From Eledone cirrhosa (taxonomy: Eukaryota), in NCBI GenBank assembly GCA_964016885.1, contig OZ024745.1, positions 87,544,001 to 87,608,000 of the forward strand: a DNA stretch of 64,000 bases. Direction: 5' to 3'. A model generated the notes under the pieces. That model searched no databases. It was given only the letters and a program-made list of their open reading frames with translations, and had not been told where the DNA came from. The number at the start of each line of letters is the position of its first letter. Position 1 is the first letter of the stretch. Both the position numbers and the translations under genes were made by a program. Of the stretch, positions 3,920 through 60,448 are shown in pieces.

Positions 3920-6421
3920 CAGTTGCATTTATCTTGCTTTATGTTCATACGAGTTATCACCAAGTCACTACCAGTGACCTCAAGAGACAACAAGGTCCGC
4001 CATGTTCAAGAAAGAACATACATATTCACACATGCATCTTTAGTGTTTAGACTTGTGATGTACTTATATTGACAGAATCTTCCTTAGTATATGGGCAGTT
4101 CCCATTAGTACTATCTTTTGTATTTCTCCTATACGCGGGTTTCCTGGGATTTGCGATAAGTAATCATTAGACCCCTTAGGTATCATTCCCAGAGCGCCTA
4201 CAACCACTGGTATTGTTTTAGTTCTCAATTTCCACATTTTTCCAATTTCTATCTCCAGGTCCTTATACTTGCTCAATTTTTCAAATGTTTTTATAGATAC
4301 ATTCTTGTCTATTGGAACAGACATATCAATTAGCAGGCATACCCTCCTTTGAAAGTCCTTCAATATTATATCAGGTCTATTTGCATCTATTTTTCGGTCT
4401 GTTTGGATGCTAAAGTTCCACAAGATTTAGATGTGATCTTTTTCAAGTATGGGAGGTGGTTGATGCTCCCACCAATTCTTTTGATGGGGCAGGTCAAAAT
4501 GCTTACACATTATCCAATGTATATATTGTGCAGCTCTGTCAGGCCTGTTTAGGTATTCGGTTGGAGCTATAGGACTGCACATTGAAATTATATGGTCAAT
4601 GGTCTCTGGTTGTTTTTTGCATACACGGCATAATGGGCTGCACCCATTTTTTATTATGTTGGCTTGGTAATTTTTTGTTGGCAGACACTGATCTTGTGCC
4701 GATATAATCAGTCCTTCAGTCTCCGATTTCAGTCCAGAGGATGCCAACCCTTGATGGGTTAAAGTTTTGTCAACATCAGGATTGTTAGCTCGCTCTGGGT
4801 ATTTTCCATACAGAGGCTTTTCTTGCCATTTCTTAGCCAGTTTCTGTAGCAGTTCTTACTTTGCCGTTACTTTTACCTTCTTTGCTTTTTCTGTGTTTTC
4901 CATTTCAGCAGTAAATGGGACTTCTGAAATTTGTAGTCCATTACTGTATCTTTGTGCATCTTTTGTAATGGAATATGATCTTTTGATGCTTTCTGTTTCC
5001 AAACGAGTTTGATCATCCAATCATGTGATTCCCTTAGATATGTAGATAATCCAATTGTTGCAGTTTTCAACGCAATGTCTAACTGGATTAACCCACGTCC
5101 TCCTTCTTTCCTAGGGAGATATATTCTATCCATATCTACCTTAGGGTGATGCATTCTGTGCATGGTTAAGAATTTTCAAATTTTTGTATCCAGCCTACGG
5201 ATCTCTGTGCTTGACCAGTTGATGACATTGTAACTGTAGGTTACTACTGGTATGGCAAGCGTGTTTATGGCATCGATCCTATTGTTTGCATTCAATTCCG
5301 TTCTTAAGATTGCTCTTACTCTGCGGTAACATTCCTTCCTTATCCTTTCCCTCATTGTCGAGTGCTTGATTCCGTCTCCTTCACAAACACCTAGATATTT
5401 GTAGGTTTTTTCTTGATCAAGTTCTCTTATCACGTTCCCCCGATCAAGATTAATGTCTGAACTCTTCAGCAGCTTTCCTCTGGTGAACGTTGCTTTGGCG
5501 CATTTATCTAGTCCAAACTCCATTTTAATGTCATCACTGAACTGCTTAACAGTGGATAATAGCCCTTGCAATTGTTCATCATTTTTTGCAAATAGTTTCA
5601 GGTCATCCATGTAGAACAGGTGATTAATGGTTTTGTCATAGACTCTATATCCATGTTTTGTTTCATTAAACATTTTACTTAATGGTATAAGTGCGATGCA
5701 GAATAAAAGCGGTGATAAAGAGTCACCCTGAAAAATTCCACAATTAATATTAACTTCTCCAGCTTCCAGTGATTTTGTTTCACTATTCAAAAGGAGTGTC
5801 GTTTTCCACGTCTTCATACTGAATGACAAAAACCTCCTGACAACGGGGGATATTTTGAAAATCTCTAAACATTTTTCAATCCAACTGTGTGGCAAACTAT
5901 CGAATGCTTTTTTATAATCTATCCAAGCAATCGATAGAATTTTGTGTCTATTATGACAATCTTCCAGTATCATTTTGTTAACCAGAAGCTGATCCTTACA
6001 GCCATATGAGCCTCGTTTACACCCTTTCTGCTCAATGGGAAATAGGTCATTTGTTATCAGGTGGTCATATGTGTATTCAGTTAGGACTGATGTTAAAATT
6101 TTATACATTGTGGTCCAGCAAGTTATCGGTCTGTAATTTTTGGGATTGTTTGTCTCATCATTCTTCGGAAGCAGGAATGTAATGCCGTTAACTAGCCATG
6201 ATGGTATCTTTTCTGGCTCCTTAACTGTTTCATTGTAAAGTTGGGCTAACAGCTCATGAGACTCTGTGAAGGCATTTATCCAAAAGATTTGTATTTTCTC
6301 TTTTCCTGGGGATTTCCATTTGCTGGTTTTTCTTAGAGCCAAGCGCAACTGTTCAACTGTTATATTTTCCCATGTTTGTTCCTCAAGGTGAGCTGTATCT
6401 TTCATTTGTCTGTCTATCCAG
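3920..6421 (-). mobile_element. R4/Dong-like family B, 5'-truncated, frameshifted
   Basis: ORFs 5176-6405 (RT: KSPG, NYRPIT, QKGC, YMDD), 4427-4747 (CCHC) and 4064-4423 (RLE). Confidence 0.92.
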
Positions 6422-9345
6422 ACACAGAGTAGTTGCCGCTGACACCAGACCAGGTGTCATACCGACAGCCATTACTGGCACAACAAAAGTCACACCAGTG
6501 CTGCTGCTGAATGTCAGAGGCCTGCTGAAACTCAGTAACATGAGTAAAATTTCCTACGTGGGAGACTTAGCAATAAGCAAACAAGCATTATGCATGGCAC
6601 TAACCGAAACGCATCTGACAAGCAGTATAGCAGTTGTAGAAATACATATACCAAAATATACTGTATTTCGTTCGGACAGGAAGGAGAGAACTCATGGTGG
6701 GGTTGCTCTGTCTATCCGTGAAGATGTCACACCAATTGTACTGTTGACACATTCAAACTCAGTCTGTGACACACTGATAGTACATATGAAGCAACTAAAG
6801 ACAGCAGTAATATGTGTCACATATCGGCCGCCCGATGCCCCCAGTCATGGGGGTAAATTTGAGGATAGCCTAAGTAGGATAGAAGAGGTCCTTGACAAAC
6901 AGGACTAGGGTCTCAACATTCTACTGCTGGGAGACTTCAACCTACCAAAGGTCAAATGGCCTGAGGGCCACCTACTCCCTGGAATGATGTCAATAGAACA
7001 GAGACAGACGGAATCCCTGCTGGCCCTCACACACAGGCTGTTCATGGAGCAAGCGATACTCCTCCCAACAATAGGCGAAAATGTCCTGGACCTCTGTTTT
7101 ACAAACAACGAAGTGCTCATCCACAATGTAAAGGTGACACCAACAATTCTCTCGGATCATAACTTAGTAGAACTAATGATATGTGGTCCGAGAGAACCAA
7201 CAGATACAAAACCACCAAGAAGCTCCGGGAAGTTATCCAGCCTTAACTTCTACAAGGCTAACTGGAAGAAGATTAAGAGAGAATCCAGAAGCAATCATGG
7301 AGTAAAAACACCGCCACACAAGACACTAACGCACAATTTCAACACTTCATGACAACGATACACACTATATGCAAAAAGTTTGTCCCGGAGAAAAAGGCAA
7401 ACAGACACAAAAATCTTATTCCCAGAGATAGGAAAATCCTTATGAGACGTAGAACCAAGCTCTCAAACCAGTTGAATGCTCAACAAGAAAACAAAAACAA
7501 GAAGGAATCCTATTTGAAATGTGTACTACTTGGCACCGAGTTTGCACTCAAACTTTCCGATGAAAATGAGAGGGCAAAGAAAGAGAACAGGGCCATCGAA
7601 AACATCAAAACAAACCCTAAGGCCTTCTTTAAATTTGCAAAAGAAACTGCCTCGGTACACTGCAAGATTGGGCCACTCTTTCATTAACCGAAAACCCCCA
7701 AGAGATATGTGAAATACTGAACGAACAGTACAAAAGTGTCTTCACATGTCCACTGAGGCACATGCAAATAACGAAGCCAGAGGAGTTCTTTGATGCCACA
7801 ACACTACATGAAGAAATGGCGACCATCAAACACATAGACATAATGGAGGAGGATGTGGTGTACGCCATAGATGAAATTAGAACAGACTCAGCTGCTGGAC
7901 CTGATGGATTCCAAGCAGTTCTCTTAAAAACATGTAAGCGGGCCTTAGCAACTCCACTGAAGATGCTCTTCAGAAGCTCCCTGACTAGCGGTGTACTACC
8001 CAGTGAGCTGCAAGAAGGCACAATATGCCCTATCCATAAAGGAGGTAGCAGATCAGACGCCAAAAACTATAGACCAGTCTCCCTGACGTCACATATCATA
8101 AGGTCATGGAGCGAGTCATCAGAAAGAAACTGATCACTTTCCTCGAGGAAAATGACCGCCTGCCTAGCACGCAAAATGGCTTCCGCCCAGGAAGAAGCTG
8201 CCTTACACAGCTGCTACATCACTACGACTGGGTACTGAAACAACTACTAGACAGCTCACATGTGGACGTGATATATCTTGACTTTGCGAAGGTCTTTCAC
8301 AAGGTTGACCACGGAATGATATGTCACAAACTACACGGACTCGGCATAACTGGAAAAAGTAGGTGAGTGGCTGCATGACTTCCTAAAGGACAGAAGCTAG
8401 ACAGTCGCAGCAAATAGGGCCCTCTCAAAGGAAACACCAATAACAAGTGGGGTGCCCAAGGGGACAGTCCTGGGACCACTACTGTTTGTGGTGGCTCTCT
8501 CAGACATACCCTCTATAGTACATACAACAACATCCCTCACTAGCTATGCTGATGACACTAAGGTAGCACAGGCAATCAAAAACCCGGCTGACGGTGCCCT
8601 TTTACAACAAGATCTGGAAGCCATATACAAATGGGCGGAAGAAAACAACATGCAGTTTAATGCTGGCAAATTCCAAGCCCTACAATACAAACCTCTAAAC
8701 AAACCTGCAAACACACATATAGTACAACACAACTACACAGGACCAGGGGGGACCGATATCCCCGTGTTTAAATCGATACGAGACCTGGGCATAGACATGA
8801 GCGATGGTGCATCTTTTTCTTCACACATCATGAAAGTGGCGACAATGTGCAGACGACTCGCTGGCTGGATCTTGAGGACTTTCCGGACAAGAGACCGAGA
8901 CACCATGTTGACACTATGGAGGACATTTGTCCTAAGCCGCCTGGACAACTACTCCCAGTTGTGGTCACCCCATAGTGTCAACCTAACCGCGGAGCTTGAG
9001 GCAATGCAGCGAAGCAACACCAAGATGATTGCCACGATGGAGGAGACAAGCTACTGGGAGAGGCTAAAGGAGCTGAACCTCTACTCCTTGGAACGAAGAC
9101 GGGAGAGATACGCAGTGATCTACATGTGGAAAATCCTGGAGGGACTAGCATCAAACTTTGGCATTGGGTTGCTGGACCAACCGTCGAACAGGACGTCACT
9201 GTGTGGTGCCAAAGGTCCCGTCTTCCACATCTAGAATAAGGAGCAGGTATTGTAATAGCCTGGGATTCAAGGGCCCTCAACTCTTCAACAAGCTGCCGAG
9301 GGATCTGAGAGATTTGCATGACATGGAGGTGGATGTCTTCAAGAA
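6422..9345 (+). mobile_element. Decayed CR1-group (CR1/Crack/L2-like) LINE ORF2: AP endonuclease + RT
   Basis: APE motifs LNVRGL, LTETHL, GGVAL, YRPP, GDFNLP, LDLCF, SDHN; RT motifs AAGPDG, NYRPVSLTS, QNGFRPGRSC, YLDFAK, YADDTK, LYSLERRRERY; several stops/frameshifts; 3' end missing. Clade assignment is approximate. Confidence 0.85.
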
Positions 9346-9349
9346 ACAT

Positions 9350-9555
9350 ATATATGCAAGTATCGGTTTACCGAACATTTATTATAATGCTCAGTTTGTT
9401 TGTAAACAAACAAACAGCCCGAATTACGCCGTACAGTGTCAGTGTTGAACAAAAAGGTGACGTGGTTGCCTAAACACTGTACGTCATAATTCGGGCTGTT
9501 TGTTTGTTTCCAAATAAACCGAGCATTATAATAAATGTTCGGTAAACCGATACGG
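9350..9555. repeat. Fold-back fragment of repeat family H1
   Basis: gtatcggtttaccgaacatttattataatgctc...tacagtgt followed by its reverse complement (~80 bp arms). Confidence 0.85.
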
Positions 9556-9884
9556 GACCCAATACAAAAATAATTCAGTCGATGGAAAAAAGCTAACGCG
9601 GACTAAATCCCAATCCATTGAAAACTTCACTGCCTTCATGGTCAGTGGCAAATCCAAAAGAATCAATCACGGACATTGAGGTTAATCAGTGAGGAGTGGG
9701 GTGTTAAAAAGACAGTAGCCAAGTTTAATACTATGAACGATAATAGTAATTTAGGCAAATTTTTGCTCAACAAAATAATTTGGAGATAATTATAAAGGAT
9801 TAGTATATCTACCAACATATTTATACATATATTTAAGTAACAGCCGTACTAAGAGTGAGAAATGAAATTTCGTTTCATTTATCC

Positions 9885-9924
<40 letters not shown>

Positions 9925-10383
9925 AAGAATTAATATATCTTCCAACATATTACTATAATTTTCTTATTTTACGTCTTTTATATAATAGTTCTACATCTCT
10001 TTGTATTGAACCACAAAGTTACTAAGACAAAACCTATATCTCTGCTAGCGTAAGTATACATCTGTATAAATATGTTGATAGATATATTAATTCTTTATAT
10101 ATACATATATATATATATATTTGGGAAAAATGAAACGAAATTTCATTTCTCACTCTAAGTACGGCTGTTAATTAAATATAAGTATGTATACGTACATATA
10201 TGTATACAGATATACAGTAGTATGTATATATATATATACATACATGCACACATATATATATGTACGTATGGATTCACCGAACATTTATTATAATGCTCGG
10301 TGTGTTTGTAAGCAAACATCCCGAATTAAGCCGTACAGTGTCTTGCAACCATAGTTGCTCATTTGTTCAACACTGACAAAGGA

Positions 10384-10426
10384 ACGCTGTACTAGTTTCA
10401 AGCTTATTAGCTATCGTCAGCAACGT
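10384..10426 (-). ncRNA. Minimal type I hammerhead ribozyme (H1)
   Basis: Minus strand: acgttg CTGACGA tagct aata agctt GAAA ctag TA cagcgt. Confidence 0.85.
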
Positions 10427-10655
10427 ATACCTTCCTGCCAGATGGTTGAACGTCTGAACGTATATACTTTCCTTATGCATATTAACGGCTGAGTCGCCTA
10501 ATTTGCATATCGAGTGAGTTAATCGGCCGGGATACCGAAAACGATGAACGGAAAAAATGAAAGGAAATTTCATTTCTCACTCTTAGTACGGCTGTTACTT
10601 AAATATAAGTATGTATACGTACATACATATATGTATACAGACGTACAGTAGTATG

Positions 10656-10754
<99 letters not shown>

Positions 10755-10924
10755 CATACATGCACACATATATATATGTACGTATCGATTCACCGATTAA
10801 CCCGATTCACCGATTTCACCCCGGCCGATTAACTCACTCGATATGCAAATTAGGCTACTCAGCCGTTAATATACATAGGGAAAGTATATACTTTCAGACC
10901 TTCAACCATCTGTCAGGAAGGTAT

Positions 10925-10967
10925 ACGTTGCTGACGATAGCTAATAAGCTTGAAACTAGTACAGCGT
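10925..10967 (+). ncRNA. Minimal type I hammerhead ribozyme (H1)
   Basis: acgttg CTGACGA tagct aata agctt GAAA ctag TA cagcgt. Confidence 0.85.
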
Positions 10968-11241
10968 TCCTTTGTCGTTGTTGAACAAATGAACAACGAT
11001 GGTTGCTAGACACTGTACGGCTTAATTGGGGATGTTTGTTTACAAACACACCGAGCATTATAATAAATGTTCGGTGAATCCATACGTACATATATATATG
11101 TGTGCATGTCTGTATATATATATATATATATATACATACTACTGTACGTCTGTATACATATATGTATGTACGTATACATACTTATACATATATATTCATA
11201 TATATATATATATATATATATATGTATACCCTTTTATATTC

Positions 11242-39359: not shown

Positions 39360-39845
39360 TACATACCTATATTTAAGTATCAGCCGTACTAAGACTGACA
39401 AATGAAATTTCATTTTTTCCATTTATCGTTTTCGGTACGCCCGGCCGAATAACTCACTCGATTTCCAAACTAAGCTGTTCAGCCCTTATTATGCATAAGG
39501 AAAGTATATACTTTCAAACGTTCAGTAAACTGACAGGAAGGTATACGGTGATGATGACAGCTAATAAGCTCCAAAATAGTTCATCGTCCCTTTGTCAGTG
39601 TTGTACAAAATGGCAACAATGGTTGCCGAAGACTATACGGCTAATAATTCGGGCTGTTTGTTTACAATCAAACCGAGCTTTATAATAAATGTTCGGTAAA
39701 CCCATACGTACATATATATATGCGTGCATGTATGTATGTCTATACGTACTACTGTACGTCTGTATACATATATGTATGTACGTGTACATACTTATATTTA
39801 AGTATCAGCCGTACTAAGAGTGAGGAATGAAATTTCATTTTTTCT
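39360..39845 (+). repeat. H1 unit with mutated hammerhead core (39545-39587)
   Basis: Same orientation as 10820-11190; core reads ATGATGA..CAAA atag TT. Confidence 0.8.
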
Positions 39846-39870: not shown

Positions 39871-40390
<520 letters not shown>

Positions 40391-41965: not shown

Positions 41966-42010
<45 letters not shown>

Positions 42011-42131
42011 ACAAACATAGAATATTCGAAAATATTCTGTATGTTTATAATAAACATTTTGAAGACCTAATCGCTATAGAATAGAATACGTCACGTATTA
42101 CAATTTGAGATTCTCGATAAAAGCAAGGGAA

Positions 42132-42174
42132 GTAACCTACGCGTTTCATTCTTATTTGAAATCATCAGGATTAC
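42132..42174 (-). ncRNA. Minimal type I hammerhead ribozyme (H3)
   Basis: Minus strand: gtaatc CTGATGA tttc aaataa gaat GAAA cgcg TA ggttac, enclosed by perfect helix ttctcgataaaagca/tgcttttatcgagaa. Confidence 0.87.
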
Positions 42175-42443
42175 ATATCCAATGCTTTTATCGAGAATGA
42201 CACAGCTAGAGACTTATAGAATACTTAGCTGTGTACAGGAACTGGTTTGAAAGAGCGGTTGCCGGTCCGGCAGAAATTAGAATTTGGATTTAATGCTCTG
42301 AAATAGCGATATATATGTGAAGACAAACATAGAATATTCGAAAATATTCTGTATGTTTATAATAAACATTTTGAAGACCTAATCGCTATAGAATAGAATA
42401 CGTCACGTATTACAATTTGAGATTCTCGATAAAAGCAAGGGAA

Positions 42444-42486
42444 GTAACCTACGCGTTTCATTCTTATTTAAAATCATCAGGATTAC
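42444..42486 (-). ncRNA. Minimal type I hammerhead ribozyme (H3, second unit)
   Basis: As 42132-42174 with one C-G to U-G change in stem II. Confidence 0.85.
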
Positions 42487-42740
42487 ATATCCAATGCTTT
42501 TATCGAGAATGACACAGCTAGAGACTTATAGAATACTTAGCTGTGTACAGGAACTGGTTTGAAAGAGCGGTTGCCGGTCCGGCAGAAATTAGAATTTGGA
42601 TTTAATGCTCTGAAATAGCGATATATATGTGAAGACAAACATAGAATATTCGAAAATATTCTGTATGTTTATAATAAACATTTTGAAGACCTAATCGCTA
42701 TAGAATAGAATACGTCACGTATTACAATTTCAAAATGTTT

Positions 42741-44150
42741 ATGTGTGTGTTTATGTTTGTTTATTTATTTGTTTATTTATATGTTACTGGTTGGTTGTTT
42801 GTTCTATGTGTGCGTGTGTTTTCATTTTGTCCTTAATTGTAAGTTGTGATGTGGCTGTTCCATTCATGTTTTCTATTTAATTTTGGTTAGAGTTCATTTA
42901 TGTTTATTGCCTCTCTGATTTGTCTAAACATTGCGTCTTTTCTGTGTGTAGATTCTATTTTTATTTCTATGTTCTCTAATTTACCCCTATGTTCTATTTT
43001 AGCATGTTGGTGGGGTACAGATGATTCTTTACTATCTTGAAGCTCTCGCCAATGTTCATTTATCCGTTCCCCTATAGTACGAGCTGTCTCACCTATGTAC
43101 ACTATATTCTTATCTCTACATTGTCCTTCAGTACATCTTATGCTATATACTACATTTCTAGTTTTACAGTTAATATGGAGGCTTAATTTACAAATTATAC
43201 ATTTCTTATCTATACAGGGAGGTCTTTGAAAAGGGTATGTATTGCTAATAAGTGTTTTTATGGAGGTACCTGTTCTTTCTACTATCTTAATATTGAGTTT
43301 ATGTTTATCTAGGGCCCTTCTAAATTTGTAAGCTAATTCACCTCTAGGGGTTGTATGGATGAACATTACACTCTGGTATTTATTGATACCATACCATGAG
43401 TTTATTCTATTAATCTTATTCCTAGTTCTTTCTATTCTATTCCAAAATTTGCTCCTACACAAGGGGCAGGTCCCATTTGTATCATTATTTACCATTTTTT
43501 CCCATTTGGTTCTGGCTCCTCTATATACTCTGATTTTATCTCTCTGATTGTAACCAGAGAACTGCATACGGTGGATGAAGTATTGTATGTGTCTCTCTAG
43601 TTCTTTGAGCTTGCACATGCGGGACAGGTTTCTCATCACCCGTACCAAATCCGCGATCAGATTTTGGTCAGAAACAGCTGAGTTTCGGTGGATCAGATAT
43701 TTGGAAGTCATGGGTTTGGCATAATGGGAATGGAGGATTTGTTTTTTGTTATTAATGGTATCTAACCAGAGCTCTGTGTCTAGTACGGGTGATCGATGGT
43801 TGGGGTGTTTGCTTGGGTAGTCTATAGTAACTCTAATACTCTGGTGGATGGAGTTAGCTATTTGCAGGATGCTTTCCATGGTGTTTTTTTCTAATTCCTG
43901 ACTGTTCTCTAGTGGGGGTGTTTTTACTACGATGTTTATATCATCAACGTAGCGCGAGTACATTATCAGGGTTAAGGGGGTGCTGTCTTCTAATTGTTCT
44001 TTAAGTTTCAGTTTAAGACTACTGTCCCACCATACCATGAATAGGTTAGCTATGACACCTGCAATGCTAACACCAATGACTGCTCCCTCCTCTTGGGCAT
44101 ATGTTTTTCCTTTAAATTTGAACATATGTTCCTTAAGGGTTAATTTTATA
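42741..44150 (-). mobile_element. Penelope-like element, 5'-truncated (RT + GIY-YIG)
   Basis: ORF 42887-44296: FKFKGKTYAQEEG, YSRYVDDI, VLDTELW, HYAKPM, CIDKKCIIC, VVYSIRC..YIGETARTIGERINEH; the ORF's first ~50 aa are flanking DNA. Confidence 0.9.
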
Positions 44151-48455: not shown

Positions 48456-48515
<60 letters not shown>

Positions 48516-48517
48516 TA

Positions 48518-50504
48518 CAAAACCACCAACCTTTACGGACTTCCGAAGATCCACAAGTGTAAAATAATTAACGATGCCTGTAAATAATTAACAATGCCTG
48601 TAAACAATCCACCTCAGCCTGCGTGAACACACAATAAGACCAATTGTAGCGGGCCCACAATGAGAAACACACAGACTGAGCAACTTTATAGACATTCTAC
48701 TAAAACCAATTCTCAAACACATACCAAGCCTTGTAAGAGACGATCTGGACCTATTAAACCACCTCCCCAAATATGTCAACAACGACACAATTATTATATC
48801 TTTCGATGTAGTGAATCTCTACACAACGATCCCACACCAATACGGATTAGAAGCAATAGGATTCTGGCTAGAGAAATATCCCAGTGAGATACCTGGCAGA
48901 ATAGAAAAAAGCTTCATGACCGAGGGATTAAAATTTATCTTAGAGAACAACTTTTGGGATTTCGATGGCAGTACTTACAAACAAATATCGGGAACTGCGA
49001 TGGGTATAAAAGCCGCTCCAACTTATGCCAACTTAGTCATGGCATACTTAGAAGTCTAGATATATGAACAGTCCAAATCAAAATACGGATTGAACTTCCA
49101 CAAATATTTATCAGAGAATTGGAAACGAGACTTGGATGATTGTCTCATTCTTTGGTCCCACACACTCGACCAACTGAATGATTTTAAAAATGTAATTAAC
49201 GGCATCAATAACCACATCCAATTGACAATAGAATACAGCCAAGATCAACTCCCATTTCTGGGCATCTTACTCTTAAAAAAAGACACAAATATTGAAACTG
49301 ACATACACTACAAACCAACAGATTCCCAAACAATGCCTGCTATTCACCTCCAACCATCCAAATCACACGAAGACGAACATTCCTTTTAACCTAGCAAGAA
49401 GAATTTGCACAATTGTCTCCAATTATGAAACGCGAAATAAAAGACTTCCAGAATTAAAGGAAATTCTACTCGAAGGATAGTATCCACCATTACTAATAAA
49501 TAATTGTTTCTACTTTAGGCACAAGGCCAGCAATTACCCAGTGCATTACTGGTACTTTATTTTATCGACCCCGTAAAGATGAAAGGCAAAGTCAACCTCG
49601 GCGAGATTACTAATAAATAATGGAATAGAAAGGGCTAAAGCAATAGGCATTGATGAATTACGAAAACAGAAACAAAATCAAGGTACGTCCAATATTTTAT
49701 CATATATCTCAACACACAATCCAAGAAATGTGGAAGTTTACAACGCTATTCACAAGAACATCCCACTACTAAAACAAGGCCCAAGAATGAAAAGAACCCT
49801 TGAAACACACACAATAATCAAAAACAAAAGACAACCGAAATTACTGAAAACATTACTCACCAATGCAAAATTACCTACCACAAACCCACAACCAACTGTC
49901 AAAAAATGTGGTCGCTCTAATTGTGGAGCCTGCACTCACCTCATTGAAGGCAAAACGTATACATTCCAATCAGGACGAAAATTTTGCTGTAAAAAATCAC
50001 TTCACTTGCTCATCAAAAATCTACTTTATGCCATTATATGTAAAGGATTCAATGAAGATTATATAGGACAAATTAAACTCACACTCAGGAACAGAATGAC
50101 AGTTCATCGCCAACAATTACGAGATCCAACCACGAGACAGATACCACTAAGCACACATCTAGACATATGCGCAAGTAATAAGACACCCAAATTCCAAATC
50201 TTCCCATTTTACCTTTGTGCTGACAATACAACAGAACAAATACGAATAAATAAGGAAAATATGTTTATTCAAAAATATAGACCAACATTAAATATGGTTT
50301 AATATACATTATGTCAACACCATAACATGCTAACCATCCAAAAAGACACAAACACACACACATAACACCTACTACTTTAGAAAATAAAAACCCGAACTAA
50401 ATAAACCTTCACATACGTTTGTGCTGACAATACAACAGAACAAATACGAATAAATAAGGAAAATATGTTCATTCAAAAATATTTCTACTAACGGAATCAT
50501 TTTC

Positions 50505-53296: not shown

Positions 53297-53378
<82 letters not shown>

Positions 53379-53666
53379 CAAATAACGAAACGAAATTAAA
53401 TTTCGTTTCGTTTGTAACTCACTTTTGTATGACAGACGCTTAAACAATTAAGTTAAAAATGTACATCCACATATGTATACTGAAATACTAGTATGCATAT
53501 GAATACACACACGTGTACATATGTAGATGTACCGAGTTTTTCACTGGTCACTTTACTGTGAGTGTCCAGCTATTCTGTATGTAAACACACAGACAAACCG
53601 GTTTTTAGAGTCATACTGGTTTTTGAGGAAACACCTTTCCTCTATTCTCCAGAAAGCCAGACAAGG

Positions 53667-53711
53667 AATATTGGACTAGTTTCGATGTTGTTACATCTCA
53701 TCAGCAATATT
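53667..53711 (-). ncRNA. Minimal type I hammerhead ribozyme (H2), fully canonical core
   Basis: Minus strand: aatattg CTGATGA gatgt aaca acatc GAAA ctag TC caatatt. Confidence 0.92.
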
Positions 53712-54132
53712 TACCTATCTTCCGGCCTTTCTAGAGAATCGTAAAAGCACATATCGTTATATGCTTTTTCTATGAAAATTAGTAGTGGGCAGACTAATTT
53801 GCATAGAGCGTGAGTACGTACCGGTTCAACGGAGACGATAAAAACAAATAACGAAACGAAATTAAATTTCGTTTCGTTTGTAACTCACTTTTGTATGACT
53901 GACGCTTAAACAATTAAGTTAAAAATGTACATCGACATATGTATACTGAAATACTAGTATGCATATGAATACACACACGTGTACATATGTAGATGTACCG
54001 AGTTTTTCACTGGTCACTTTACTGTGTGTGTCCAGCTATTCTGTATGTAAACACACAGACAAACCGGTTTTTAGAGTCATACTGGTATTTGAGGAAACAC
54101 CTTTCCTCTATTCTTCAGAAAGCCAGACAAAG

Positions 54133-54177
54133 AATATTGGGCTAGTTTCGATGTTGTTACATCTCATCAGCAATATT
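54133..54177 (-). ncRNA. Hammerhead ribozyme (H2, second unit), U16.1C mutant
   Basis: Minus strand: aatattg CTGATGA gatgt aaca acatc GAAA ctag CC caatatt. Confidence 0.75.
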
Positions 54178-54783
54178 TACCTATCTTCTGGCCTTTCTAG
54201 AGAATCGTAAAAGCACATATCGTTATATGCTTTTTCTATGAAAATTAGTAGTGGGCAGACTAATTTGCATAGAGCGTGAGTACGTACCGGTTCAACGGAG
54301 AAGATAAAAATAAATAACGAAACGAAATTAAATTTCGTTTCGTTTGTAACTCACTTTTGTATGACTAACGCTTAAACAATTAAGTTAAAAATGTACATCC
54401 ACATATGTATACTGAAATACTAGTATGCATATGAATACACACACATGTACATATGTAGATGTACCGAGTTTTTCACTGGTCGCTTTACTGTGAGTGTCCA
54501 GCTATTCTGTATGTAAACACACAGACAAACCGGTTTTTAGAGTCATACTGGTTTTTGAGGAAACACCTTTCCTCTATTCTCCAGAAAAACCAGTATGACT
54601 CTAAAAACCGGTTTGTCTGTGTGTTTACATACAGAATAGCTGGACACTCACAGTAAAGTGACCAGTGAAAAACTCGGTACATCTACACATGTACACGTGT
54701 GTGTATTCATATGCATACTAGTATTTCAGTATACATATGTGCATGTACATTTTTAACTTATATATATATATATATATATATTC

Positions 54784-55920: not shown

Positions 55921-55922
<2 letters not shown>

Positions 55923-56430
55923 CTGGAAAAGAAATGAAATGAAATTTCATTTTTCACTCTTAGTACGGCTGACACTTAAATATAAGTATGTATACGTACA
56001 TTCATATATGTATACAGACGTACAGTAATATGTATATATATACATACATGCACATATATGTATATATATGTACGTATGGGTTTACCGAACATTTATTATA
56101 ACGTTCGGTTTGTTTGTAAACAAACAACCCTAATTAAGCCGTTCAGTGTTCGGCAACCATCGTTGCCCCTTTGTTCCACACTGACAAAGGAATGATGAAC
56201 TAGTTTCAAGCTTATGAGCTATCGTCAGCATCGTATACCTTCCTGTCAGATGATTGAACGTTTGAAAGTATATACTTTTCTTATGCATATTAACGGCTGA
56301 GCAGCCTAATTTGCATATCGAGTGAGTTAGTCGGCCGGGCGTACCGAAAACGATAAATGGAAAAGAATGAAATGAAATTTCATTTATCACTCTTAGTACG
56401 GCTGATACTTAAATATAAGTATGGAAACGT
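55921..56430 (-). repeat. H1 unit (1.1 copies) with hammerhead at 56192-56234
   Basis: Minus strand: acgatg CTGACGA tagct cata agctt GAAA ctag TT catcat; ggaaaagaa..gaaatgaaatttc recurs at both ends. Confidence 0.85.
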
Positions 56431-56508
56431 ACATACGTAACACATATATATATATATTATATTATGGAATACTGTTAGCTTCTCGCTACAATACTTTCTA
56501 TACCTTTC

Positions 56509-58885: not shown

Positions 58886-59000
58886 TCATACCTTTTCCTA
58901 TTTCCCACTCTACTACCCTAAGTATTGAGTACTCTGGTGCGTTATGGTCCATCTGGTTCCTTACCACTATTCCTTTGCTATATATATATATATATATATA

Positions 59001-59124
<124 letters not shown>

Positions 59125-59488
59125 TATATTTATATGTATTCATATATATATTCATATATATATATAAATGGAATAGAATGAAACGAAATTTCATTTCTCA
59201 CTCTTAGTACGCAGTTACTTAAATGTAAGTATGTACATACATATATGTATACAGACGTACATACATATGTACGTACATACAAATGTAAGTACGTACATAC
59301 ATATATGTATACAGACGTACAGTAGTATGTATATGTATACATACATGCACACATATCTATATGCACATATCAGTTTACCGAACATTTATTATAATGCTCG
59401 GTTTGTTTGTAAACAAAGAAATAGCCCGAATTACGCGGTACAGTGTTTAGGAAACCAAATCACCTTTTTGTTCAACACTGACACAGGA

Positions 59489-59531
59489 ACGATGTACTAG
59501 TTTCAAGCTTATTAGCCATCGTCAGCATCGT
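59489..59531 (-). ncRNA. Minimal type I hammerhead ribozyme (H1)
   Basis: Minus strand: acgatg CTGACGA tggct aata agctt GAAA ctag TA catcgt. Confidence 0.87.
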
Positions 59532-59929
59532 ACACTTTCCTGTCAGATGGTTGAACGTCTGAAAGTATATACTTTTCTTATGCATATTAACGGCTGAGCA
59601 GCCTAATTTGCATAACGAGTGAGTTTAGTCGGCCGGGCGCACCGAAAAGGATAAACGGAATAGAATGAAACGAAATTTCATTTTTCACTCTTAGTACGGC
59701 AGTTACGGAAATGTAAGTATGTATATATGTGTACGTACATTCATATATGTATATAGACGTACAGTAGTATGTATATATATACATACATGCACACATATAT
59801 ATATGCACGTATCGGTTTACCGAACATTTATTATAATGCTCGGTTTGTTTGTAAACAAACAAACAGCTCGAATTACGCCGTACAGTGTTTAGGCAACCAC
59901 GTCACCTTTTTGTTCAACCTGACACTGGA

Positions 59930-59972
59930 ACGATGTATTACTTTCAAGCTCATTATCTATCATCAGCATCGT
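59930..59972 (-). ncRNA. Minimal type I hammerhead ribozyme (H1), drifted
   Basis: Minus strand: acgatg CTGATGA tagat aatg agctt GAAA gtaa TA catcgt. Confidence 0.75.
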
Positions 59973-60448
59973 GTACCTTCCTGCTAGATGGTTGAACGTC
60001 TGAAAGTATATACTTTCCTTATGCATATTAACGGCTGAGCAGCCTAATTTGCATATCGAATGAGTTTAGTTGGCCGGGCGCACTGAAAACGATAAATGGA
60101 ATAGAATGAAACGACATTTCATTTCTCACTCTTAGTACGGCAGTTAATTAAATGTAAGTATGTATGTATACGTACATACATATGTGTATACAGACGTACA
60201 GTAGTATATATAAATATATATATATATATACATGCAGGGATATATATATGCACGTATCGGTTTACTGAACATTTATTATAATGCTCCGTTTATATATATT
60301 AGAAAGTGAGGTTTTTTTATTATTTTTTTTTTACTGAATGAAAAATAACCGAGGTGTCCTACACGAGTGAAATTATAAAGAAAAAAACATGAAATCGAAA
60401 ATGTAACTAGAGTCTTATTTTTTAAAAATATATATATTTATTTGGTTC

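What the first reader, a model, noticed from the sequence alone, without database searches (positions are those of the whole stretch)
59166..60290. H1: dispersed and tandem ~440 bp hammerhead repeat present at five loci in 64 kb
Seen at 9350, 10128-11190, 39360, 55921 and 59166 as fragments, monomer-plus-overlap, tandem and inverted forms, almost always beside (TA)n and never attached to a matching ORF. It appears to cut off the CR1-like LINE at 9345. Inference: a very high-copy non-autonomous retrozyme that favours (TA)n and probably passes as satellite or unknown repeat.
Basis: partly seen in the sequence, partly recalled or inferred. Interest (0 to 1): 0.78.

Follow-up and report, generated by a model that had tools for sequence, protein, structure and literature searches.

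The report
Ribozyme repeat bearing Penelope insertion signatures
A 442-base non-coding repeat with a hammerhead ribozyme motif occupies an estimated 55,000 places in this animal genome and mostly ends on TA microsatellites at one of two fixed points, exactly as the genome's own Penelope-like retrotransposons do, so it is likely a passenger copied by their enzyme and is predicted to be transcribed from its own U6-like promoter.

Summary
Confirmed. H1 is a 442-bp unit with a type I hammerhead motif on the minus strand, whose stems covary against sister family H2. Sampling gives about 55,000 loci (11 in 600 kb). Start points are not permuted: copies have two fixed 3' ends 56 nt apart, both mostly on (TA)n, and scattered 5' ends that ignore the cleavage site. 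In head-to-head pairs one arm uses each end (22 of 24 classifiable). An autonomous Penelope-like (PLE) family in the same genome follows the same rule (8 of 8; tail 57-59 nt). H1 is therefore most likely a non-LTR retrozyme moved by PLE enzyme, a link so far argued from co-occurrence and pLTR homology. H1, H2 and a third family carry, upstream of the ribozyme, the octamer-like motif of this genome's U6, U6atac and RNase MRP promoters, but with a weaker TATA-like box about 5 bp closer. One insertion grew into a 60-kb, 136-unit array. Not shown: transcription, cleavage, circles, the partner's identity. New member of a known kind, with unusually direct mechanistic evidence.

The parts
59166..60290 (-). 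H1 insertion of 2.44 units; fixed 3' end (site A) at 59166, ragged 5' end near 60290
58979..59166 (.). (TA)n tract abutting the 3' end, the inferred target
59166..59221 (-). 56-nt optional 'tail' with hairpin, between end sites A and B; absent from arms that end at site B
59484..59542 (-). type I hammerhead, first unit: intact core, U.U at the base of stem II, palindromic minimal stem III; predicted cut 59495/59494
59925..59983 (-). hammerhead, second unit; core intact but stems II and III carry private mismatches (likely impaired); predicted cut 59936/59935
59603..59614 (-). octamer-containing 12-mer also found at -77 to -79 of this genome's U6, U6atac and RNase MRP genes (second copy 60044-60055)
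59565..59572 (-). TATA-like box 43 nt after the motif (second copy 60006-60013); weaker and closer than in the U6-type genes
59645..59648 (-). only T4 run of the sense strand, 4 nt beyond end site A at internal junctions (second copy 60086-60089); meaning uncertain
10128..11190 (.). head-to-head H1 pair: left arm ends at site A, right arm at site B, both on (TA)n
9347..9554 (.). short head-to-head H1 fragment pair joined to the truncated LINE
9799..9888 (+). H1 3' fragment ending at site A on (TA)n
39360..39845 (+). old H1 copy, 1.16 units, ribozyme core broken
55921..56450 (-). H1 copy, 1.2 units, site A on (TA)n
53372..54760 (-). sister family H2 (466-bp unit, about 65% like H1): 2.6 units plus an inverted arm lacking the tail; canonical G-C stem II; same promoter-like motif
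42887..44146 (-). 5'-truncated PLE ORF (RT + C-terminal GIY-YIG, P0001); its family is the candidate partner and positive control, not part of H1

Best explanation
H1 is a protein-less 442-base hammerhead repeat with two fixed ends on TA microsatellites, and it is most likely a non-LTR retrozyme that a Penelope-like element's RT/GIY-YIG protein copies in trans. Inferred cycle: (1) the U6-like motif plus TATA-like box would start an RNA at the 5' edge of the ribozyme (polymerase unresolved); (2) read-through of loci with two or more units would give multimers, which the short palindromic stem III is predicted to cleave as dimers into unit-length RNAs that may circularise; (3) the PLE protein would cut both strands of a (TA)n tract and prime reverse transcription at two internal RNA sites 56 nt apart, each offering a few bases of match to TA, one DNA end at each site; (4) copying runs through the cleavage site and often past one unit, most simply on a circle (about 55%) or on an uncleaved multimer (about 40%), and stops at random; (5) the two cDNAs join 5' to 5', or only one is kept; (6) rarely a multi-unit insertion then grows by block duplication into a satellite array. 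Shown in DNA: unit, motif, ends, pairing rule, array history, the same rule in an autonomous PLE family. Inferred: every RNA step and the partner.
For: Fixed site A: 30 of 62 end matches share the same 10-mer junction and 60 of 62 touch TA. Fixed site B: 29 of 141 arm segments start at unit position 55-66, 2 of them really truncated heads. Pairing: of 33 simple head-to-head pairs, 24 could be classed at both ends: 22 A+B (3 with a looser B call), 1 A+A, 1 B+B; single arms are A 31, B 8. The P0001 PLE family ends on TA at two sites 57-59 nt apart (21 short, 24 tailed ends) and all 8 head-to-head pairs are short+tail. [quoted passage not shown] 5' ends of 38 arms not selected for length run from 64 to 1078 nt; 26 pass the cleavage site, 14 exceed one unit, 2 stop within 10 nt of the cut (1.8 expected). 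Ribozyme: core intact in 55 of 65 dispersed and 115 of 134 array units; 5 pairs change on both sides in an H1+H2 alignment, 86.9% of cells paired against at most 46.5% in slid controls. PLEs are abundant, with open frames up to 1,257 aa (41,180 candidates, 100 scored).
Against: No autonomous PLE with an H1-like pLTR was found among 29 other P0001 loci, 30 GIY-YIG loci and 20 nine-kb PLE regions (part's output was cut). H1's ends share no clear sequence with the P0001 family's; a 9-of-10 match lies at non-equivalent sites. The ribozyme is no better conserved than its flanks within H1, its predicted folds do not beat shuffles (z -1.4 to +0.2 in 4 windows) and favour a competing pairing. The covariation rests on 10 distinct rows, 2 of them H2. 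The 59166 units share no variant and differ at 29 of 328 sites, which neither supports nor excludes one template. Most loci were picked by similarity to the window copy; only 11 come from unselected sampling. In vitro, a PLE used uncleaved RNA and did not need its ribozyme. Promoter spacing is 4-7 bp short of the U6-type genes.
Confidence: 0.83

Rival explanations
1. Same PLE enzyme, but the template is an uncleaved multimeric transcript from tandem loci or arrays; the ribozyme and circles are side products (a variant of step 4, not of the mobiliser).
For: No pile-up of 5' ends at the cut fits uncleaved RNA equally; a 60-kb array exists and two sampled loci share 7-9 of its 9 diagnostic variants; unprocessed RNA was the main substrate of the Anolis PLE in vitro; 8 of 9 Xenopus retrozyme dimers did not cleave in vitro (10.64898/2026.07.22.740005).
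Against: Stems are kept by compensatory changes between H1 and H2. Array units differ by about 5% whereas young multi-unit insertions can be nearly uniform (L009: 3 differences in 330 sites). The monomer folds strongly as a circle (-140.7 against -94.6 +/- 5.7 kcal/mol in 40 shuffles, partly owing to TA palindromes).
Confidence: 0.4
2. H1 is only the pLTR of an autonomous PLE whose heavily 5'-truncated copies look ORF-less.
For: The P0001 family has the same layout, ribozyme then two ends; U.U-based stem II also occurs in PLE pLTR hammerheads here; my PLE survey was partial.
Against: Beyond one unit H1 repeats itself, up to 136 times; 5' flanks of the 52 arms listed are inverted H1, TA or unrelated sequence, never a common body.
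Confidence: 0.07
3. H1 is a SINE-like repeat moved by a LINE (CR1/RTE type), with (TA)n as a tail made at insertion.
For: LINEs fill the window; twin priming also makes inversions (recalled); Schistosoma hammerhead repeats are described as SINE-like (PMC6765202, passages).
Against: Both arms of a pair end on TA at two fixed internal sites; the ends lie inside a repeating unit; no 3' similarity to a LINE was looked for systematically, but the identical rule is seen in a PLE family.
Confidence: 0.04
4. H1 is a DNA-level repeat (MITE, Helitron-like or satellite spread by recombination) with an incidental ribozyme-like motif.
For: Inverted pairs mimic TIRs; one fixed and one variable end is also a rolling-circle trait (recalled); an array has expanded by block duplication.
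Against: Inversion points vary between loci and the arms differ by the tail; the array keeps site A on (TA)38; the strict hammerhead descriptor finds 25 motifs in 400 kb against 0-1 in each of 20 shuffles.
Confidence: 0.03

Closest known systems
Non-LTR retrozymes of animals (PMC7229834; parts 2-3 of 6 and passages read), especially axolotl Rtz_331/Rtz_353
   Same: Short ORF-less tandem and dispersed repeats with a type I hammerhead; one-pair stem III with palindromic tetraloop (as HHR_Amex1) and U.U at the base of stem II (as HHR_Amex2); about 60,000 motifs per family there; PLEs proposed as mobilisers.
   Different: Unit 442 bp (their RNAs 170-400 nt); about 55,000 loci in a 3.0-Gb genome; (TA)n targeting, two fixed ends and the one-tail-per-pair rule are not described in the parts read; circRNA is shown there and untested here.
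Li, Clavereau & Pollet 2026 preprint, 10.64898/2026.07.22.740005 (parts 1-3 of 5 read; supplements closed)
   Same: [quoted passage not shown]
   Different: Evidence is co-occurrence and pLTR homology in Xenopus; the text has no 'tail', 'promoter' or 'target site' and samples no mollusc. Here insertion anatomy points to PLE enzyme, but no homologous pLTR was found.
EN+ Penelope-like elements (PMC8557442, PMC3846280, PMC4209133 passages; PMC11167929 parts 1-2 of 4), including non-autonomous Chlamys such as MRC1
   Same: 5' truncation, partial tandems, head-to-head inversions, optional tail at one end, microsatellite targets, hammerhead in the repeat.
   Different: No ORF; tail 56 nt rather than 30-40; canonical-type 6-bp stem I and 4-bp stem II rather than the minimal PLE hammerhead; non-autonomous Chlamys resemble their partners at the 3' end, H1 does not visibly.
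Newt satellite 2 and Schistosoma Sm-alpha
   Same: Hammerhead repeats with an internal promoter: snRNA-type, Pol II in newt; Pol III in schistosome (known here only through citing passages in PMC2220036 and PMC6765202; originals not held).
   Different: H1's motif matches this genome's Pol III type-3 genes (U6, U6atac, MRP), not its U1/U2 promoters, at altered spacing; no PLE-type ends are reported for those repeats in the passages seen.

Membership tests
non-LTR retrozyme | type I hammerhead motif in each unit | tested here: met
   core intact in 55 of 65 dispersed units
non-LTR retrozyme | short tandem-repeated unit without ORF, LTR, PBS or PPT | tested here: met
   442-bp unit, 0.1 to 136 units per locus; no ORF of 150 aa or more overlaps any window copy; PBS/PPT not searched for separately
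non-LTR retrozyme | dispersed, high copy, coexisting with PLEs | tested here: met
non-LTR retrozyme | self-cleavage of the transcript | not testable with these tools
   motif and covariation only; predicted folds unremarkable
non-LTR retrozyme | expression as linear and circular monomer RNA | not testable with these tools
   no RNA holder listed
PLE-mobilised element | fixed internal 3' ends with optional tail at one arm | tested here: met
   control family
PLE-mobilised element | 5' truncation, partial tandems, head-to-head inversions | tested here: met
   (28 of 55 selected loci have an inverted junction)
PLE-mobilised element | sequence homology to the pLTR of an autonomous family | tested here: inconclusive
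   none found in a partial survey
autonomous PLE | own RT + GIY-YIG ORF | tested here: not met
   no common body at the 5' end of 52 arms
Pol III type-3 (U6-like) promoter | upstream motif as in this genome's U6/U6atac/MRP genes | tested here: met
   20.7 bits in H1 against 18.6-21.1 training and 13.0-17.7 leave-one-out; 6 of 7 hits at >=17.2 bits in 600 kb are H1/H2
Pol III type-3 (U6-like) promoter | TATA box 47-49 nt after the motif | tested here: not met
   42-44 nt in H1, H2, H4; 4.7-5.9 bits in H1/H2 against 11.7-13.0
Pol III type-3 (U6-like) promoter | T-run-free body ending in a T-run | tested here: inconclusive
   fits H1 (chance 0.057) and H4; H2 has a T5 before its short end
MITE / Helitron-like DNA element | two fixed termini with TIRs, or TC...CTRR ends (features recalled) | tested here: not met
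   5' ends scattered; ends read CATT then TA

The most novel reading that the evidence does not exclude
At least three diverged retrozyme families in this genome (H1, H2, H4) are self-promoting RNA circles: each keeps a re-spaced U6-type promoter inside the circle, placed to start RNA at the ribozyme's 5' edge, and each offers two docking sites so that a dimeric PLE protein primes both ends of a cut (TA)n tract, one per site. This would give the full life cycle of an animal retrozyme, explain the PLE tail as the distance between the two priming sites of one double-ended reaction, and show one route from retro-insertion to satellite DNA.
Probability: 0.3. Interest if true: 0.78.

Novelty: new member of a known kind. 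Interest (0 to 1): 0.55.

Why it matters
Which enzyme moves animal retrozymes, and what PLE hammerheads are for, are open questions. A repeat of about 1% of a genome that shows the PLE two-site, one-tail-per-pair signature beside an abundant PLE family with long open frames makes the trans-mobilisation claim directly testable in vitro. The strict short+tail rule (22 of 24 and 8 of 8) is a genomic constraint on the PLE mechanism itself. The shared U6-like motif suggests how such repeats are transcribed, and maps this lineage's U6 promoter as a by-product. None of the ten literature searches returned a paper describing these end or promoter features for a retrozyme (notably); subscription papers and unread supplements of PMC7229834 and the 2026 preprint may bear on this.

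Tried and rejected
Rfam scan: no hammerhead call for H1; miRNA hits are TA-palindrome noise below gathering. The repeat finder was swamped by (TA)n. I first took the 312-bp hammerhead tandem at 42004-42730 for the pLTR of P0001; rejected, since none of the 29 other P0001 loci has it adjoining and the family has its own hammerhead. Partner search by GIY-YIG family and PLE flanks found H1 only as a neighbour (L175, L195, L198). A genome search with H2 returned nothing, uninformative as common words are skipped. Sequencing runs: no RNA holder listed; contigs of two runs of unknown kind were laid (7,028 and 12 records) and say nothing on expression. A single 60-kb rolling-circle event for the array was rejected: units have near-identical partners at lags such as 5, 14 and 25, median nearest distance 0.7%. 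A longer tail beyond site A was not seen (0 of 64 internal junctions). The constrained-fold energy was mis-specified and is not used. The 'two outward termini' count (1 of 51) counted only site A and led to finding site B. In the first sample 6 of 7 H1-bearing regions had the hit near position 4,200-5,300; the second sample did not repeat this, so I treat it as chance. RNase P, U1 and U2 genes lack the promoter motif. The original newt and schistosome promoter papers were not held.

Full report
Observation. Thirty-four full units give a 442-bp consensus. On the minus strand each unit has a type I hammerhead: 6-bp stem I plus a distal stem, the CUGANGA and GAAA core, a 4-bp stem II closed by U.U, and a minimal palindromic stem III before the GUA cut (57 segments). 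Rfam misses it. The U.U closure and the one-pair palindromic stem III are both known from axolotl retrozymes (PMC7229834), and such stems need dimers to cleave (PMC4209133). Within H1 the ribozyme is not better conserved than the rest, as expected of copies that decay after insertion, and single-window folds are unremarkable. The evidence that it is maintained comes from sister family H2, about 65% identical, which keeps the core while stems I and II change on both sides (10 distinct rows, one of them mis-registered and partial; 5 pairs; the shuffle control is not a probability).

Copy number. G000 is 3.0 Gb. Sixty 10-kb regions at positions I set beforehand gave 13 BLAST clusters; 2 are H2 cross-matches at 75%, leaving 11. 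My arithmetic on that gives about 55,000 loci (Poisson 95% range 27,000-98,000) and 0.9% of bases. The sample over-weights the four largest contigs (45 of 60 regions, 54% of bases). The window is four to five times denser than average. The best named protein match of the window's PLE is a predicted Octopus vulgaris protein at 62%, so the host is likely an octopod; this is inference.

Ends. In ribozyme sense, copies end at site A (CATT then TA), 284 nt past the cut: 60 of 62 non-internal matches touch TA. A second fixed end, site B, lies 56 nt earlier and also reads CATT then TA: 29 of 141 arm segments, 2 of them truncated heads, with 14 others unclassified and 2 at locus edges. 5' ends scatter from 64 to 1078 nt with no pile-up at the cut (38 of 39 arms placed). 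Head-to-head junctions occur in 28 of 55 selected loci. Of 33 simple pairs, 24 were classifiable: 22 A+B, 1 A+A (a composite of two subfamilies), 1 B+B; 9 had an end that was off the locus or elsewhere, and 4 complex clusters were left out. Selection of many loci by the head sequence favours A at one end but cannot explain B at the other, since single arms are A 31, B 8. H2 shows the same in the window and has site A on TA in L258.

Control. P0001 (RT and GIY-YIG, both just under Pfam cut-offs) belongs to a very large family with long open frames. It has its own hammerhead and two TA-abutting ends 57-59 nt apart, and all 8 head-to-head pairs held are short+tail. The literature describes the optional tail on one inverted arm and traces it to two internal RT start sites with both DNA strands cut and extended. 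H1 thus carries the most specific genomic mark of PLE enzyme. The partner is not identified: no H1-like pLTR turned up. Equal tail length and target make the P0001 family a candidate, no more; H2's tail is about 80 nt.

Promoter. A 12-mer containing the octamer is exactly shared by H1 and H2 (the name 'octamer' is recalled). The genome's U6 genes at three loci, one U6atac and RNase MRP carry it at -77 to -79 with a TATA box at -31; 14 other U6-like and 3 other U6atac-like copies, 4 U1, 4 U2 and RNase P do not. A matrix from those five scores H1 as high as its training sites, and 6 of 7 hits at 17.2 bits or more in 600 kb are H1 or H2. A third hammerhead family, H4 (L194; 3,837 candidates, 40 scored), has the motif three times. 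In all three the TATA-like box is 42-44 nt on, against 47-49, and weaker. Applying either U6 distance puts the start within about 6 nt of the 5' edge of stem I (my reading). T-runs fit Pol III for H1 and H4 but not H2, and all three have T-runs in the promoter part that multimers must cross, so the polymerase is open. Newt satellite 2 and Sm-alpha are precedents for promoter-bearing hammerhead repeats.

Template. An RNA from promoter to site A would be about 330 nt and lack the promoter, yet 16 of 38 arms reach 405 nt or more. Propagation therefore needs a circle, template jumps or uncleaved multimers. Units in one locus share 43% of variants against 4% between loci, but the figure leans on one array and on subfamily structure and cannot separate these.

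Array. C2:382,983,700-383,043,800 holds about 136 same-strand units (134 recovered), ends at site A on (TA)38 and has an inverted flank duplication at its 5' end; near-identical blocks show later expansion.

Verdict. A new, very abundant non-LTR retrozyme family by DNA criteria, with expression and cleavage untested. The kind is known and the PLE link was proposed in 2020 and argued in a 2026 preprint. What is added is the two-site pairing rule with an in-genome control, and the U6-like motif in three families. An earlier scan note on another genome (e1-7810660) reports a similar TA-targeted Penelope-type repeat with a tRNA; it is a lead, not support. Interest 0.55.

Noticed in passing
window 1-22315 and L136 (10 kb before the window): A 17,818-bp tandem duplication at 99.9-99.98% identity; it repeats the truncated LINE and the 9347-11190 H1 cluster. 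Recent duplication or assembly artefact.
   Followed up: partly
L031-L070 (400 kb sample): A strict hammerhead descriptor finds 25 motifs (7 are H1) against 0-1 per shuffle; scaled up, about 190,000 in the genome, from many families.
   Followed up: partly
window 41997-42730, 39972-40388, 40503, 46888, 48374, 51440, 52494, 55768, 61485: Further hammerhead-bearing repeats, several beside (TA)n; 61485 matches the P0001 family's pLTR ribozyme; the 51440 element has the U6-like motif 189 nt upstream.
   Followed up: partly
L213, L214, L215, L244, L245: This genome's Pol III type-3 promoter: octamer-like 12-mer at -77 to -79 and TATA at -31; U1 and U2 instead share a TCAGT-containing element near -56.
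   Followed up: yes
L249 (RNase P RNA gene): Lacks the U6-type motif and shows the U1/U2-type element upstream, hinting at Pol II transcription.
   Followed up: no
L194:240-680 and L270-L289: Family H4: about 440-bp hammerhead repeat with a triplicated promoter-like motif, tandem copies and a fixed end on TA reading like H1's site B.
   Followed up: partly
window 48515-50302: Broken Neptune-like PLE (label from recalled motifs; GIY-YIG hit) interrupted by a short dispersed repeat at about 49500-49615.
   Followed up: partly
L108: Two H1 copies tail to tail around a short (TA)n, each ending at site A; probably two insertions into one tract.
   Followed up: no
L195:6877-9001: A second H1 tandem array of at least 5 longer units (475-511 bp) of the L064 subfamily; extent not mapped.
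   Followed up: no
run X4, organism B: One 226-nt contig covers the ribozyme and promoter part with 18 differences; may be a relative's copy, unverified.
   Followed up: no
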